Source of the DNA: Felis catus
Lineage: Eukaryota
Direction: 5' to 3'
Assembly (NCBI RefSeq): GCF_018350175.1
Contig: NC_058377.1
Location: 100,068,001-100,132,000, forward strand
DNA: 64,000 nt
Below the pieces are notes generated by a model. That model had not been told where the DNA came from and did not search any database. It saw nothing but the letters and a program-made list of their open reading frames with translations. Position numbers and translations under genes: made by a program. Positions 41,534 to 53,771 of this stretch are shown one piece after another (within the stretch, counting starts at the first letter, position 1; every line of letters begins with the position of its first letter).

Positions 41534-42442
41534 ATGGATAGTCCACGAAACATCACGGAATTTTTCATGCTGGGACTCTCGCAAAACTCTGAAGTGCAGA
41601 GAGTTTTGTTTGTGTTCTTTTTGATTGTCTACCTTGTCTCTGTTGGGGGCAACCTACTTATCATGATCACCATTATCTTCAGTCCCACCTTGGGCTCCCC
41701 TATGTACTTTTTCCTGTCATGTTTGTCCTTTATTGATACTTGCTATTCCTCATGTATGACCCCCAAACTCATTGCAGACTCCTTGTATGAGGGGAGAACC
41801 ATCTCTTTTGAGGGCTGTCTGATTCAATTCTTTGTTGCCCATTTACTGGGAGGAACTGAAATCATTCTGCTCACGGTCATGGCCTATGACCGCTACGTGG
41901 CCATCTGCAAGCCTCTGCACTACACGACCACCATGACCAAGCATCTCTGTGCCCTGCTGGTGGGGGTGGCTTGGCTGGGGGGCTTCCTGCATTCACTGGT
42001 TCAGCTCTTCCTGGTCCTTCAGCTGCCCTTCTGTGGGCCTAACGTGATCAATCACTTTGTCTGCGACCTGTACCCCTTGCTGGAGCTCGCCTGCACCGAC
42101 ACATATGTCATTGGCGTCCTGGTGGTGGCCAACAGTGGTGTGATCTGCCTGTTGAACTTCCTCATGCTGGCTGCCTCCTACATTGTCATCCTGCGTTCCT
42201 TGAGGTGTCACGGTGCCGAGGGGAGGCGCAAAGCCCTCTCCACCTGTGGGGCCCACTTCACTGTTGTTGCCCTGTTCTTTGTGCCTTGTATATTTATTTA
42301 CATGCGGCCATCGTCTACTTTGTCCGTGGACAAAATAGTGGCTGTGTTTTATTGTATTTTGACACCCATGTTCAACCCCCTGATTTATACACTGAGAAAC
42401 GCAGAGGTGAAAAATGCCATGAAAAACCTATGGAAAAAATGA
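41534..42442 (+). CDS. OR4C3D: Olfactory receptor OR4C3-like (mouse Olfr140/Or4c3d type), 302 aa, intact
   Basis: [18 protein letters not shown]..; [61 protein letters not shown]. Both termini match the recalled mouse Olfr140. Confidence 0.85.
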
Positions 42443-42934
42443 GCAATTGTGGATAGAAGATACAGGTACCGTAAGGAAAGAAATAACGAGTCATTCTCAG
42501 TATAAGTTCATATTTTCATGATGAGAGCTGAGAGACTATTAAAAATTTCCAGAATAAAACTGATTTGAATGTTTGAAATTATGTCTAGTCTATCCATGTC
42601 CTGTGATACTGGCCAGACAAATTATTATACACAACTTCAATTTCTTTTAAACAGTTTACACTGCATTGCAGAACATGGAAACACCAACTCTTCCTCACCT
42701 TTGTCTGAGATGGAGCCTTCATCAGCCTGGGCTAGTAAGAGTCTGTGATGAGTAGGACCCCTTGTTGGAGTGAAAAGTATGACCCCTGGTCCTCCAACTC
42801 TGCACATCAGAATATGATCAGAGTAGTTACTGATGGTTCACCTATGCCTGATTCTATCTACAATTTTTTTTTGAAATTTTACTGAAATGGAGTTTAATGT
42901 GATTTTTTTCCATTTAAAAACATTCTGCTGTTTT

Positions 42935-43110
42935 TAAAAATGTTTGTTTATTTTGAGAGAGAGAGAGTTAGAACTTGAGTGGGGGAAGGGCAGAGAGAGA
43001 GGGAGACAGAGAATCCCAAGCAGGCTCTGTGCTCAAACCCATGAACCATGAGATCATGACCTGACCTGAAATCAAGAGTTGGACGTTTAACCAACTGAGC
43101 CACTCATGTT
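42935..43110 (-). mobile_element. Can-SINE (internally deleted)
   Basis: Reverse SINE motifs. Confidence 0.8.
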
Positions 43111-45177
43111 CCCCCTCCCATGCTGATACACTTACAAAATTGCCAGGAGTCCACAGCAGAAAAAAGGTCAAGACCAGCTTTATCTGGCATGTTCCAGACA
43201 GAGGCTGCTCCACTGGGTGGGTCCTGGACAGAAGACCACAAGGCACAGACTGACTCTGGGGGACACTGGGAGGGGTTGAGCAGTCTTCAGTTGCCCCTGA
43301 GATGGACATTGTCCTCATAGCCTAATCTATATTCTCTATCTGCCGTGTGGATTCTTAGACAGTGGTCCAAATCTTTTATGCCATAAGAAGTTTTGAAGCA
43401 GCATCTTGGATAGCAACAGTTGAATGTCCTTTCTCTGAGAGTCCCTGTTTGCTTCTTTGGCTCTGAGGGAAGAGCCAAAGCAGGGGCCTTCTGGGCATCA
43501 TTGGGGTCCATGAAGGGATGAGTTGGTTTTGGAACAATACCAGAAATAATCTATAGCTTGGGACTATGAGAATGCAGCAAATACAATTAGGAATTACTGA
43601 ATTCAAATCCTGGAAGTGCACAGAATAGGTTTACACTAAAATGAACGTAACTATAGTATGTTGTGAAATTATGCAATAAATATCTAAACGTTGTGTACAT
43701 GTGACCACACACACGCACATGCGCGCGTGCGCACAAATAATTGAGCATTGGTTTGGTGCATCAGCTTAGAAGTAGGATCTCATATTCTCATAAGAAGTTG
43801 ACATGGTTTTATTTTTAAAAATGAAGAAAACGTATTCACAGGGGCTGATTTACTTAGCCAAGAGTGAGCTGGAATTTAAATCCGTATCATTCTGCTTTCA
43901 AGTATGATCTTGCCAAAATGCACAGTGCTTTACTATCTACTGATCTTCCTCTGCATGTTTTATTTTGCGTTTCCTGCTTGTGAGCTTCTTGTTATCAACG
44001 TCCTTATTGTCAATCTCTGATATGAACTTGCCAGATTTATTTAAAGTCTGACGTCACTATCCAGTATATCATCCAGGAGGCTTTGATTCTCTCTAATCCA
44101 CACGGTAAAGTGCTTTCTCCTGGTCACTCGTTACTGTGGGATGGCTTTGCTTTCCATTCATATGTCTTAGAACTTGAACCTTTTGGGTCCTCTGGTCAGG
44201 TGACCCCCATATTCTGTTTGAGGGCTGCATTTTATTGATAACTCATTGCCACCTACATTGGGTACATGTGGGAAGAGCTCCAAGAGAACCTCTTCTCTTG
44301 TTGGTCAGACAAGTGGGCTAGAGAGTGAAGGGGTGGATACTTTCCTTTTCTTTTTCTGTCTTCTTTTTTTTTGTTTTGTTTGTTTTGTCTTCTGATTTTT
44401 ACTCTCCTAGACCCCAGACAATCCGATGGCAGAGAAGCGTAACAAGGGTAATAATGGTGGTGTGACAGGTGCCTTAAACTCTCAGGGAGTGAAACTTTTT
44501 ATTTGGCCATTGGAGCTGTGATCTCAGGTGCCTGGAACAAATCCTTTTTATTCTCTCTGTCCTCCTGAATCTCGGCCATTGACACAGACTCCGTTGTGGG
44601 AAGTGTGTAGCACAGAGGAAAAAAAAAAAAACTAAAGCCAAATTTCCAGGGCCAAAGGCACCAGGGAGATCAAGGAGAGGAAGGGCCCAAGACAGTCCTC
44701 TCATTAAGTTGTGTATGAATTCCAGGGCTCTCCGCCTTGAAGCTGCAAACTTGTGGATCTGAACTCAAGCAGCATACCAAGGTCTTTGAGACCAGCATTA
44801 CAGGACAGACCACAACTCGAGTCCCAGACTGGCCACTGGGTGGCGTATATGTGGGACAGAGCTGAAGAACACTGCAACGGATTTGGTAACTGAACTGACA
44901 TTGGAACCACAGCCCACAGAAGATGGGTTAGAAATTGGGACCTGAAACTAGCAAGGTTAACTGCCTGCTAAAATTAAAAAATCCAAAATTCTTAATTTAA
45001 AAAAGAGTATCATTACATGATATTCAAAATATCCAGGATACAAGCTGAATTTGCCCAGTATATGGAGAAGCAGAAATCTCAACCTGCCAAGGGAAAAATA
45101 CGACCAGCAGAGGCAATGATACAGATGTTGGAATTTTCAAAGACTTTAATTATATTATAATTATATTTAATTATATT

Positions 45178-51880: not shown

Positions 51881-51994
51881 AGGTTTTTGTTTAAAACCAG
51901 GGTAGGCATAGGCATTTTCTTACTATCACTAAGAGAAGAAAGGGTGAGTAGGAATATTCTACCTTGTAGCTGGTTAAGAGGGAGCCTCTGTTCT

Positions 51995-52270
51995 TCCTGC
52001 CCCTGGAGCTTCCTTTAATGAATAGGCAGATACTCATTACTTAATAGAATCTTCCACAGATGCTCAACAAACTTTTACTTTAAAGGAAGTCCTTCCTACA
52101 GATGCGGAAGAACTAGTAGCTTTTAACTAGAAGGATTTCACTGAGCCCAGGGAAAGCAAAACCAGAAGCATATAAAACGTGTAAAGCAAGGGGGCAAGAG
52201 TAATTTAAGTTTGGCCTCCTGGACATGATGCTGCCCACAGCACGGGTTCTGAGTGGGAGGGGTGAGCAGG
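51995..52270 (+). promoter_or_regulatory. Candidate OR4C3 promoter and first exon
   Basis: EBF-like CCCCTGGAG (52000) beside homeodomain-type TTTAATGA (52014). GCCCAGGGAA at 52145, TATAAAA at 52171, donor G|GTGAGC at 52262 and acceptor TCTTGACTTTATAG ending at 52824. Confidence 0.4.
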
Positions 52271-52862
52271 GAAAGAACCAGGAAGTCGGGGAGGTCTTCA
52301 GCTGCAGCCTATCAGCTTGTCTCAGATTTGCTTCTGTTTTACATCGGTTTGTGTTGCCATCAGAAACACTGACAGAAAGTGTAGCAAGCTTCATTGAAAA
52401 GTTCAAGAAGAAAGACTGAATTCAAAGGATGTGGACTAAACATGCCGAGTTTTCAGGAGATCCTAAATGTTCATGGTTTTCTCAGGTGCCATTGCATCTA
52501 TGTGGAACCATCCTGAAAATTGTCAGAGGCATACTCTAGTGGAAAATCGAGGTCTGCCAAATGTTCAGTTTTAGCAGTAATGAAACTAATATTTAGTTGT
52601 TTTCACGTAAGAACTTAGAAATCTACTGCCCAGTGATGCAAAAGTCAACAATAGACATACGCTCATATTTTGTGGTTAACAAAGTGAATTGATACAAAAA
52701 TATTGGAATGGAAAGAGTTAAGAAGGACAAAGGGAAGCAAGTGTGTCTGAAGAAAATCTGGCAGCACCTTCCCCCACCCTGTAATTAGTTCTCTTATGGT
52801 TGTGTTTTTCTCTTGACTTTATAGGCAATACCGTACCTGCATTCTCACTGTCCTTGAGCTAT

Positions 52863-53771
52863 ATGGAAATGCCACACAATATCACAGAGTTTTTCATGCT
52901 GGGACTCTCACAGAAGCCAGAGATACAGAGAGTCCTCTTTGTGGTTTTTTTGATCATCTATGTGGTCACCGTGTGTGGCAACATGCTCATTGTGGTCACC
53001 ATTACCTCCAGTCCCACCCTGGCTTCCCCCATGTATTTTTTCTTGGCCAATCTGTCCTTTATTGATACCTGTTATTCTTCCTCTATGGCCCCTAAACTCA
53101 TTGCGGACTCCTTGTGTGAGGGGAGAGCCATCTCTTTTGAGGGTTGCATGGCTCAGCTCTTTGGGGCCCATTTCTTGGGAGGTGTTGAGATTATTCTGCT
53201 CACGGTCATGGCCTATGACCGCTACGTGGCCATCTGCAAACCTCTGCACTACACGACCACCATGACCAAGCATCTCTGTGCCCTGCTGGTGGGGGTGGCT
53301 TGGCTGGGGGGCTTCCTGCATTCACTGGTTCAGCTCCTCCTGGTCCTTCAGCTGCCCTTCTGTGGGCCTAACGTGATCAATCACTTTGTCTGCGACCTGT
53401 ACCCCTTGCTGGAGCTCGCCTGCACTGACACATATGTCATTGGCGTCCTGGTGGTGGCCAACAGTGGTGTGATCTGCCTGTTGAACTTCCTCATGCTGGC
53501 TGCCTCCTACATTGTCATCCTGCGTTCCTTGAGGTGCCACGGTGCCGAGGGGAGGCGCAAAGCCCTCTCCACCTGTGGGGCCCACTTCACTGTTGTTGCC
53601 CTGTTCTTTGTGCCTTGTATATTTACTTATATGTGGCCATCGTCTACTTGGTCCATGGACAAAAACATGGCAGTATTTTATGGTATTCTGACACCTATGC
53701 TGAATCCACTCATTTACACCCTGAGAAATGAAGACGTAAAAAATGCCATGAGAAAGCTCTTCATTCAGTAA
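52863..53771 (+). CDS. OR4C3: Olfactory receptor 4C3, 302 aa, intact
   Basis: [75 protein letters not shown] matches the recalled human OR4C3. The first ATG after the acceptor is at 52863. Confidence 0.9.

What the first reader, a model, noticed from the sequence alone, without database searches (positions are those of the whole stretch)
41864..53625. Recent gene conversion has homogenised the end of TM3 through TM6 in two old OR4C3-type paralogs
Seen: 41864-42296 and 53193-53625 (433 bp, offset 11329) differ at only 4 positions by my count (3 synonymous, one F/L). Near-identity decays over the next ~40 bp, while the N-terminal third, the TM7/C-terminus and the flanks are clearly diverged. 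Recalled knowledge: the termini match different genes in other mammals (mouse Olfr140 versus human OR4C3), so the paralogs are old. Inference: non-allelic gene conversion produced receptors that share much of the ligand-pocket region but differ in TM1-TM3 and TM7. Both share the unusual loop LRCHGAEG where the neighbouring ORs read LR(N/T)HS(A/S)EG or LRHQSSEG.
Basis: partly seen in the sequence, partly recalled or inferred. Interest (0 to 1): 0.7.

Follow-up and report, generated by a model that had tools for sequence, protein, structure and literature searches.

The report
Long-running conversion between two odorant receptors
Two neighbouring smell-receptor genes, both found across the major placental mammal groups, have nearly identical middles in this cat-family genome and, species by species, in most mammal lineages compared, most likely because they keep copying the same ~430-base stretch onto each other while their ends stay distinct.

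Summary
Observation confirmed: 41864-42296 and 53193-53625 differ at 4 of 433 bases (3 synonymous, F159L). dS is 0.027 inside the tract and about 0.9 outside. The genes are felid OR4C3D/Olfr140 (A) and OR4C3 (B).

It is not a single recent event. In 54 same-species pairs, N- and C-terminal trees split A from B with one label change, whereas the tract tree needs 39, as many as shuffled labels. A-monophyly in the tract is rejected (p-AU 7e-46). The borders recur near codons 109 and 255-270, the tract is GC3-enriched, and exchange appears to run both ways in felids. Murines, afrotherians and perissodactyls show little recent homogenisation.

The shared odorant pocket is ancestral, not newly made: 12 of 13 mapped pocket positions match in at least 53 of 54 pairs, including positions outside the tract.

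This is partial concerted evolution of the TLR1/TLR6 kind, not found in print for this pair in my searches. DNA-level proof is from one species only, and no read-level check was obtained. The scan holds no look-alike finding.

The parts
41534..42442 (+). Gene A: intact single-exon class II olfactory receptor CDS, 302 aa, orthologue of OR4C3D / mouse Olfr140
   Evidence: Translation; 99% to Panthera leo 'olfactory receptor 140', 90% to Mus musculus OR4C3D; A clade in N- and C-terminal trees
52863..53771 (+). Gene B: intact single-exon olfactory receptor CDS, 302 aa, orthologue of OR4C3
   Evidence: Translation; 98% to Panthera tigris OR4C3; B clade, with human OR4C3, in N- and C-terminal trees
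41864..42296 (+). Homogenised tract in A, codons 111-254 (cytoplasmic half of TM3, ICL2, TM4, ECL2, TM5, ICL3, most of TM6)
   Evidence: 4 differences in 433 bp; breakpoints by likelihood; GC3 0.76 vs 0.53 outside; helix limits from a low-confidence AlphaFold2 model of B
53193..53625 (+). Homogenised tract in B, same codons
   Evidence: GC3 0.76 vs 0.56 outside
41828..41857 (+). Left border in A (codons 99-108): paralogue-specific TM3 residues F99, V101, L104, T108; B has L99, G101, F104, V108 at 53157-53186
   Evidence: A differs from B at these sites in 54, 54, 53 and 50 of 54 species pairs
42296..42373 (+). Right border in A (codons 255-280): I255, I268, V269, C274, F280; B has T/S255, N268, M269, G274, L280 at 53625-53702. 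The edge wanders between 255 and about 270 but was never seen to cross 274
   Evidence: A differs from B in 45, 53, 50, 54 and 54 of 54 pairs
42200..42223 (+). ICL3 motif LRCHGAEG (codons 223-230; in B 53529-53552), derived in Carnivora and shared by both paralogues
   Evidence: G227 in both genes of 10 of 10 carnivore pairs; outside Carnivora seen only in Diceros A among the rows examined

Best explanation
OR4C3D (A) and OR4C3 (B) are tandem paralogues 11.3 kb apart whose ends sort by gene and whose middle (codons ~111-254) sorts largely by species, most likely because non-allelic gene conversion has repeatedly overwritten that middle in both directions since before the placental radiation.

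Shown: the tract in the window, synonymous sites included; the opposite tree topologies; the recurring borders; the GC3 excess.

Inferred mechanism: a break in one copy is repaired on the neighbour. Only the tract is similar enough to pair (dS about 0.03 against about 0.9 outside), so each conversion renews the homology that permits the next, and GC-biased mismatch repair raises GC3.

Inferred, weaker (about 55%): the borders stay put because conversions that overwrite paralogue-specific residues (F99/V101/L104 vs L/G/F; C274/F280 vs G/L) are selected against, while the middle is free to be shared because both receptors keep the same core pocket. Where exchange slowed (murines, afrotherians, perissodactyls), the tracts have started to diverge by gene.
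For: Window DNA: dS 0.027 vs 0.93/0.89, permutation 0 of 20,000. GC3 0.76 vs 0.53 (p=2.6e-5) and 0.56 (p=4.4e-4), with no GC3 excess in three neighbouring ORs (p=0.45, 0.72, 0.17).

54 same-species protein pairs: within-species A-B distance 0.285 / 0.045 / 0.236 (N / tract / C). In the tract this is below cross-species orthologue distance (A-A 0.088, B-B 0.105). Consensus A/B differences: 21 of 105, 1 of 144, 8 of 44. Non-consensus residues shared by both paralogues of a species: 14, 258, 11.

Trees of 121 rows: 1 label change for N (SH-aLRT 100) and C (96); 39 for the tract against a shuffled mean of 40, at least 14 forced by starred branches. Mixed A+B clades at 95 or more include Carnivora, ruminants, Sciurus, Thomomys, Cavia, Talpa, Acomys and voles.

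30-lineage subset: A-monophyly rejected, p-AU 6.9e-46. Own paralogue nearer than both orthologue medians in 24 of 30 for the tract, 0 of 30 for N and for C.

Within felids: tiger S223 and clouded leopard L195/E126 are in both genes, and tiger B carries A-type I253/I255. This points to exchange after speciation and in both directions.
Against: Synonymous-site and GC3 evidence comes from one genome; all other species were compared as proteins only, without genomic context.

Six of 30 lineages fail the median test (Orycteropus, Chrysochloris, Rhynchocyon, Echinops, Diceros, Equus). Tract differences are 8-15 in six afrotherians, 10 and 14 in two perissodactyls, 12-17 in seven murines, and murine tracts group by gene.

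Trees rest on 144, 105 and 44 columns, quick search, LG+G4, with many unresolved forks. Where a species had several A or B records I used one. Neighbour g1 shows a marginal GC4 excess over the same codons (p=0.048). Selection at the borders was not tested against a neutral loss-of-homology model. No read-level check of the window assembly was obtained.
Confidence: 0.9

Rival explanations
1. One recent conversion in this felid lineage created a new chimeric receptor.
For: Low tract dS in the window (0.027; Poisson 95% interval 0.006-0.079); sharp borders.
Against: The same region is homogenised in 24 of 30 lineages. There are no fixed A/B differences in the tract across 54 species. Lineage-specific residues are shared at several depths: Carnivora, ruminants, single cat species.
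Confidence: 0.02
2. Purifying selection on the middle, perhaps after one ancient conversion, keeps it alike with no ongoing exchange.
For: Pocket positions in the tract are nearly invariant. Afrotherian, perissodactyl and murine pairs look like this: 8-17 tract differences.
Against: Synonymous sites are homogenised in the window. The tract is not unusually conserved among orthologues (A-A 0.088 vs 0.114 N and 0.048 C). 258 lineage-specific residues are shared within species against 14 and 11 outside.
Confidence: 0.04
3. Assembly or polishing cross-contamination: reads of one gene overwrote the middle of the other.
For: The window has four N gaps, two between the genes (45178-45434, 45457-45598). 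No read-level check was obtained. (14 runs hold 95-97% of sampled words) cannot phase the tract.
Against: The flanks are unrelated and the longest identical run is 110 nt. The pattern recurs in dozens of separately deposited records. A B-specific tract residue (E126) persists in 12 of 13 felid B records against 1 of 5 felid A records. Murine tracts group by gene across seven species. Collapse would give none of these.
Confidence: 0.03
4. Conversion is recurrent, but the borders are neutral: the ends diverged early, lost the homology needed for pairing, and now block tract extension with no selection involved. This is a variant of the best explanation, not an alternative to conversion.
For: Flank dS is about 0.9, and the 30 nt left of the tract carry 9 mismatches, enough to stop heteroduplex extension (general knowledge). 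The right edge wanders (255 to about 270) in tiger, canids, squirrels, Jaculus and Peromyscus.
Against: Seven sites are fixed (90% or more in each gene) and different, five of them close to the borders: 99, 101, 104, 274, 280. Positions 99, 101, 274 and 280 differ in all 54 pairs, although conversions reach 104-108 in 4 pairs and 268-269 in 4 pairs.
Confidence: 0.4

Closest known systems
TLR1/TLR6 partial concerted evolution in mammals (PMC2077338; abstract and passages read)
   Same: Tandem paralogues; an internal block where paralogues are closer than orthologues; independent conversion in each lineage; highly conserved borders whose cause the authors could not explain; both termini evolve by gene.
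   Different: There: innate-immune receptors, about 300 aa, nine species, all converted. Here: a single-exon 7TM odorant receptor pair, 144 aa, 54 species pairs, with lineages where exchange appears to have slowed and lineages where A was not found.
Gene conversion among avian gamma-c odorant receptors (bioRxiv 10.1101/2025.11.14.688425; section 5 and passages read)
   Same: Odorant receptors; homogenised sub-regions with raised GC including third positions; species-specific clades; incongruent partition trees; clustered genes.
   Different: Birds: hundreds of genes, a ~300-bp 5' region homogenised while TM5-TM6 stay diverse; the authors describe human ORs as uniform across the ORF. Here: one old one-to-one pair with the opposite layout (TM4-TM6 shared, TM1-TM3 and TM7 distinct).
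Gene conversion in primate OR clusters (Sharon et al. 1999) and selection-bounded conversion in RHD/RHCE (Innan 2003); both recalled, not seen in any call
   Same: Conversion between OR paralogues is known; divergence peaks kept by selection beside homogenised tracts are a known model.
   Different: As recalled, those cases are lineage-limited; I did not check whether any covers OR4C3/OR4C3D.
Class II OR family 4; consOR4, PDB 8UYQ (bioRxiv 10.1101/2023.11.16.567230, passages)
   Same: B aligns over 300 residues (E 1.5e-130); D178 and Y256 correspond to the D45x51-Y6x55 activation pair.
   Different: consOR4 is an engineered consensus; no ligand of either native gene was found in my searches.

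Membership tests
Partial concerted evolution by recurrent non-allelic gene conversion | Near-identical sub-region, including synonymous sites, between otherwise diverged paralogues | tested here: met
   dS 0.027 vs 0.93/0.89; permutation 0 of 20,000; window genome only
Partial concerted evolution by recurrent non-allelic gene conversion | Tract tree groups by lineage, flank trees by gene | tested here: met
   39 vs 1 and 1 label changes; p-AU 6.9e-46; protein level; murines group by gene
Partial concerted evolution by recurrent non-allelic gene conversion | Duplication older than the speciations concerned | tested here: met
   A and B clades each hold Afrotheria, Xenarthra, Laurasiatheria and Euarchontoglires
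Partial concerted evolution by recurrent non-allelic gene conversion | GC enrichment of the converted region | tested here: met
   GC3 0.76 vs 0.53/0.56; no GC3 excess in three neighbours; g1 GC4 marginal. The two tract copies are not independent.
Partial concerted evolution by recurrent non-allelic gene conversion | Close physical linkage of the partners | tested here: met
   11,329 bp, same strand, in the window. For other species only hinted by consecutive accessions in Neofelis and Lynx pardinus and equal contig lengths.
Partial concerted evolution by recurrent non-allelic gene conversion | Low within-species dS of the tract in several species | not tested
   No DNA of other mammals was obtained
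Selection-bounded conversion (RHD/RHCE-type model, recalled) | Paralogue-specific residues fixed at the tract borders | tested here: met
   99, 101, 104, 274, 280 fixed and different
Selection-bounded conversion (RHD/RHCE-type model, recalled) | Border-crossing conversions are removed by selection, or the residues change function | not testable with these tools
   Needs population haplotypes or receptor assays
Olfactory receptor subfamily 4C (OR4C3 / OR4C3D) | Intact single-exon 7TM ORF with OR motifs and orthology to named members | tested here: met
   98-99% to Panthera orthologues; Pfam PF13853 on all listed hits
Recent segmental duplication | Homologous flanks and uniform low divergence | tested here: not met
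   Flanks share only short repeat-like matches; dS about 0.9 in the CDS ends

The most novel reading that the evidence does not exclude
OR4C3 and OR4C3D are a selected receptor duo. For roughly 100 million years conversion has forced their TM4-TM6, ECL2 and ICL2/3 core to evolve as one unit, while selection guards a handful of second-shell residues (F99L, V101G, L104F, C274G next to the pocket tyrosine, F280L). The result is two neuron populations that read the same odorant class with different sensitivity, basal activity or wiring. Murines, afrotherians and perissodactyls (exchange slowed) and primates (A apparently lost) are natural off-switches. The pair thus makes directly testable whether selection or loss of homology fixes conversion borders and ends concerted evolution.
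Probability: 0.3. Interest if true: 0.75.

Novelty: new member of a known kind. Interest (0 to 1): 0.55.

Why it matters
Mammalian odorant receptors are the standard example of birth-and-death evolution (general knowledge), and orthologues normally cluster across species. A one-to-one pair whose middle half has been exchanged in most sampled placental lineages, with borders holding at nearly the same codons, is a clear exception.

It offers the TLR1/TLR6 puzzle (why borders are conserved) with more than 50 species and with lineages where the process appears to be on, slowed, or without a partner. In practice, whole-gene trees, dN/dS estimates, PCR or in-situ probes and short-read mapping for these two genes are likely to be misleading in carnivores, ruminants, lagomorphs and many rodents. 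The seven fixed differences give a short list for receptor-tuning experiments.

Tried and rejected
- Recent segmental duplication: rejected, no flank homology.
- Conversion with the other three ORs of the window: none; tract dS is 0.93 or higher, or saturated, in the 9 other pairwise comparisons.
- No whole genome is held for this window.
- Read-level check of phasing: no result obtained, so the window's four differences are unverified by reads. The run list (14 runs with 95-97% of 147 words) cannot tell A's tract from B's and is not used as support.
- AlphaFold2 model of B: mean pLDDT 49.9, pTM 0.39. Used only for rough helix limits; no fold search, no pocket geometry.
- Dating beyond placentals: no marsupial or monotreme record among the 120 listed hits of each, so the upper age is open.
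- Primate A: none among those lists, but only 15 of 71 members of its main cluster were listed, so loss is not shown.
- B records without a detected A have a tract/outside divergence ratio of 0.96 (11 rows, related, two bats) against 0.55 (30 rows): suggestive only.
- Direction at codon 126 in the window (B has K where 12 other felid B records have E) cannot be told from back-mutation.
- Literature: ten searches found no paper on conversion in this pair and no ligand. PMC4158756 has 0 hits for 'conversion' or 'OR4C' in its main text; 10.1101/803908 gave only a screening list.
- Earlier scan notes: none on this DNA.
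Full report
1. Observation. The two 433-bp stretches differ at 4 positions: three synonymous and F159L. They lie in two intact, colinear 302-codon olfactory receptor genes, A (41534-42442) and B (52863-53771), both on the + strand, 11,329 bp apart. dS is 0.93 before the tract, 0.027 in it and 0.89 after; dN is 0.156, 0.003 and 0.167. None of 20,000 codon permutations reached the observed stretch (longest 188 nt with 4 mismatches or fewer). 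The flanks share only short repeat-like matches. The other three ORs of the window show no such tract with A, B or each other.

2. Identity. A is 99% identical to Panthera leo 'olfactory receptor 140' and 90% to mouse OR4C3D. B is 98% identical to Panthera tigris OR4C3. The window is therefore felid. Both genes have named orthologues in Afrotheria, Xenarthra, Laurasiatheria and Glires plus Tupaia, so the duplication predates the placental radiation (roughly 90-100 million years, recalled). No marsupial record appeared in the 120 listed hits. No primate A appeared either, but only 15 of 71 members of A's main cluster were shown.

3. The decisive test. I paired A and B for every species in which both were listed by name: 54 pairs including the window, plus 13 unpaired rows. 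Where a species had several records I took one. Two cross-species pairs from the first look (37 pairs) were replaced by same-species pairs, the Mustela pair was dropped, and Lemmus was never paired. Within-species A-B protein distance is 0.285 in residues 6-110, 0.045 in 111-254 and 0.236 in 255-298. Cross-species orthologue distances in the tract are 0.088 (A-A) and 0.105 (B-B), so paralogues are closer than orthologues there and only there. Consensus A and B differ at 21 of 105, 1 of 144 and 8 of 44 sites. Non-consensus residues shared by both genes of one species number 14, 258 and 11.

Trees of 121 rows split A from B with one label change for the N part (SH-aLRT 100) and the C part (96). 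The tract tree needs 39 changes against a shuffled mean of 40, at least 14 forced by starred branches, with mixed A+B clades for Carnivora, ruminants, voles, Sciurus, Thomomys, Cavia, Talpa and Acomys. On 30 lineages chosen to reduce redundancy, holding A together in the tract costs 333 log-likelihood units (p-AU 6.9e-46). The own paralogue is nearer than both orthologue medians in 24 of 30 for the tract and 0 of 30 for each end.

4. Results against. Tract differences are 12-17 in seven murines, 8-15 in six afrotherians, and 10 and 14 in two perissodactyls. They are 0-5 in ten carnivores, 2-8 in six ruminants and 0-11 in nine other muroids. Murine tracts group by gene. Exchange therefore seems to have slowed or stopped in these lineages, though they too lack ancient A/B differences in the tract. 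All cross-species evidence is at protein level, the alignments are short, and the trees are quick searches with many open forks.

5. Recurrence, direction, age. G227 of the LRCHGAEG loop is in both genes of all 10 carnivore pairs, an exchange at or after the carnivoran ancestor. Within cats, tiger A carries S223 as do tiger and lion B; clouded leopard A and B share L195 and E126; tiger B carries A-type I253/I255. This points to exchange after speciation and in both directions. F159 is private to the window's A. Tract dS of 0.027 (0.006-0.079) corresponds to a few million years at a recalled rate of about 2e-9 per site per year, and is probably a mosaic of events. GC3 is 0.76 in the tract against 0.53 and 0.56 outside (p=2.6e-5, 4.4e-4). 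The neighbours, cut at the same codon numbers without alignment, show no GC3 excess; g1 has a marginal GC4 excess (p=0.048). This fits GC-biased conversion over a long time.

6. Borders and pocket. All nine diagnostic border sites (99, 101, 104, 108, 255, 268, 269, 274, 280) differ in 40 of 54 pairs. Positions 99, 101, 274 and 280 differ in all 54. The left edge slips to 104-108 in 4 pairs; the right edge passes 255 in 9 pairs and touches 268-269 in 4. Seven sites are fixed (90% or more) and different: 36, 74, 99, 101, 104, 274, 280; none lies in the tract.

I mapped 13 pocket positions named for Olfr412 (PMC13025043, passages) and the consensus receptors (10.1101/2023.11.16.567230, passages) by counting from motif anchors; this mapping is an inference. 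Twelve match in A and B in at least 53 of 54 pairs and 6x56 differs in 8. Six of the twelve lie outside the window's tract. The shared pocket is thus the ancestral state, and recent conversions changed nothing at these positions. The nearest fixed difference is C274/G274, next to the pocket tyrosine Y273.

7. Mechanism. Shown: tract, topology conflict, recurring borders, GC excess. Inferred: repair of breaks on the neighbouring paralogue, self-renewing because only the tract is still similar enough to pair (about 90%). Inferred and open: the borders are held by selection on paralogue-specific residues (about 55%) or by plain loss of homology (about 40%). Assembly mixing is unlikely (about 3%): E126 persists in 12 of 13 felid B records and 1 of 5 A records, and the pattern recurs across many records. 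No read-level check was obtained, and two N gaps lie between the genes.

8. Comparison. The closest case is TLR1/TLR6 (PMC2077338; abstract and passages): the same layout, with conserved and unexplained borders. In bird gamma-c ORs conversion is widespread but spares TM5-TM6, and human ORs are described as uniform (10.1101/2025.11.14.688425; section 5 and passages); this pair has the opposite layout. PMC10463633 (passages) mentions paralogous conversion in tandem arrays only in general. Mouse Olfr140 and Olfr1264 are both listed in zone 4 of the epithelium (PMC3726745, passages); that Olfr1264 is mouse Or4c3 is recalled, not checked. Conversion in primate OR clusters and the RHD/RHCE selection model are recalled only. 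Ten searches (listings seen) found nothing on conversion in this pair and no ligand. The library lacks most subscription journals, and I read no supplements, where genome-wide conversion lists could name this pair.

9. Verdict. Real, and larger than reported: a new member of a known kind, interest 0.55.

Noticed in passing
window 62873-63078 vs 58864-59066, and 63083-63446 vs 56877-57202: A 206-bp copy (97% identical) of the 3' end of the minus-strand OR at 58939-59868 and its downstream sequence lies 4 kb away, followed by a 365-bp block 85% identical to another nearby stretch. It may be a recent partial duplication, a second conversion patch, or a remnant of a deleted paralogue.
   Followed up: partly
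window 53634-53651 (gene B codons 258 and 263): B carries R258W and L263W just outside the tract. R258 is kept in 107 of 121 rows and L263 in 116 of 121. W258 is shared with jaguarundi B; W263 with cheetah, jaguarundi and two Prionailurus B records. B may be under relaxed constraint in small cats.
   Followed up: partly
proteins of seven Murinae (e.g. P0047/P0246, P0037/P0137): Murine A and B tracts group by gene with 12-17 differences, while Acomys, Peromyscus and most voles show 0-6. Exchange apparently stopped in the murine ancestor, so mouse and rat hide the phenomenon.
   Followed up: partly
gene A residues 255-298 across 54 species: A's TM7/C-terminal part is far more conserved (cross-species distance 0.048) than B's (0.145) or A's own tract (0.088).
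   Followed up: no
hit lists: No primate or colugo record of A was listed although many primate B records were. Human and other primate OR4C3 show changes in the ICL3/TM6 motif (ADGRC, AKGRH). Loss of A in primates is possible but not shown.
   Followed up: partly
P0067, P0072, P0076, P0077, P0079, P0088, P0095 (Sciurus carolinensis); P0026, P0059 (Diceros); P0250, P0252 (Peromyscus maniculatus): Some species have several A or B records, which may be lineage-specific duplicates or alleles; only one per species was analysed.
   Followed up: no
window 6970-7899 (+), 23471-24400 (+), 58939-59868 (-): Three further intact family-4 ORs; resemblance to OR4S1, OR4B1 and OR4C5 is recalled, not tested. 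A LINE-1 ORF2-like fragment lies at 1227-1787 (-) (label recalled).
   Followed up: no
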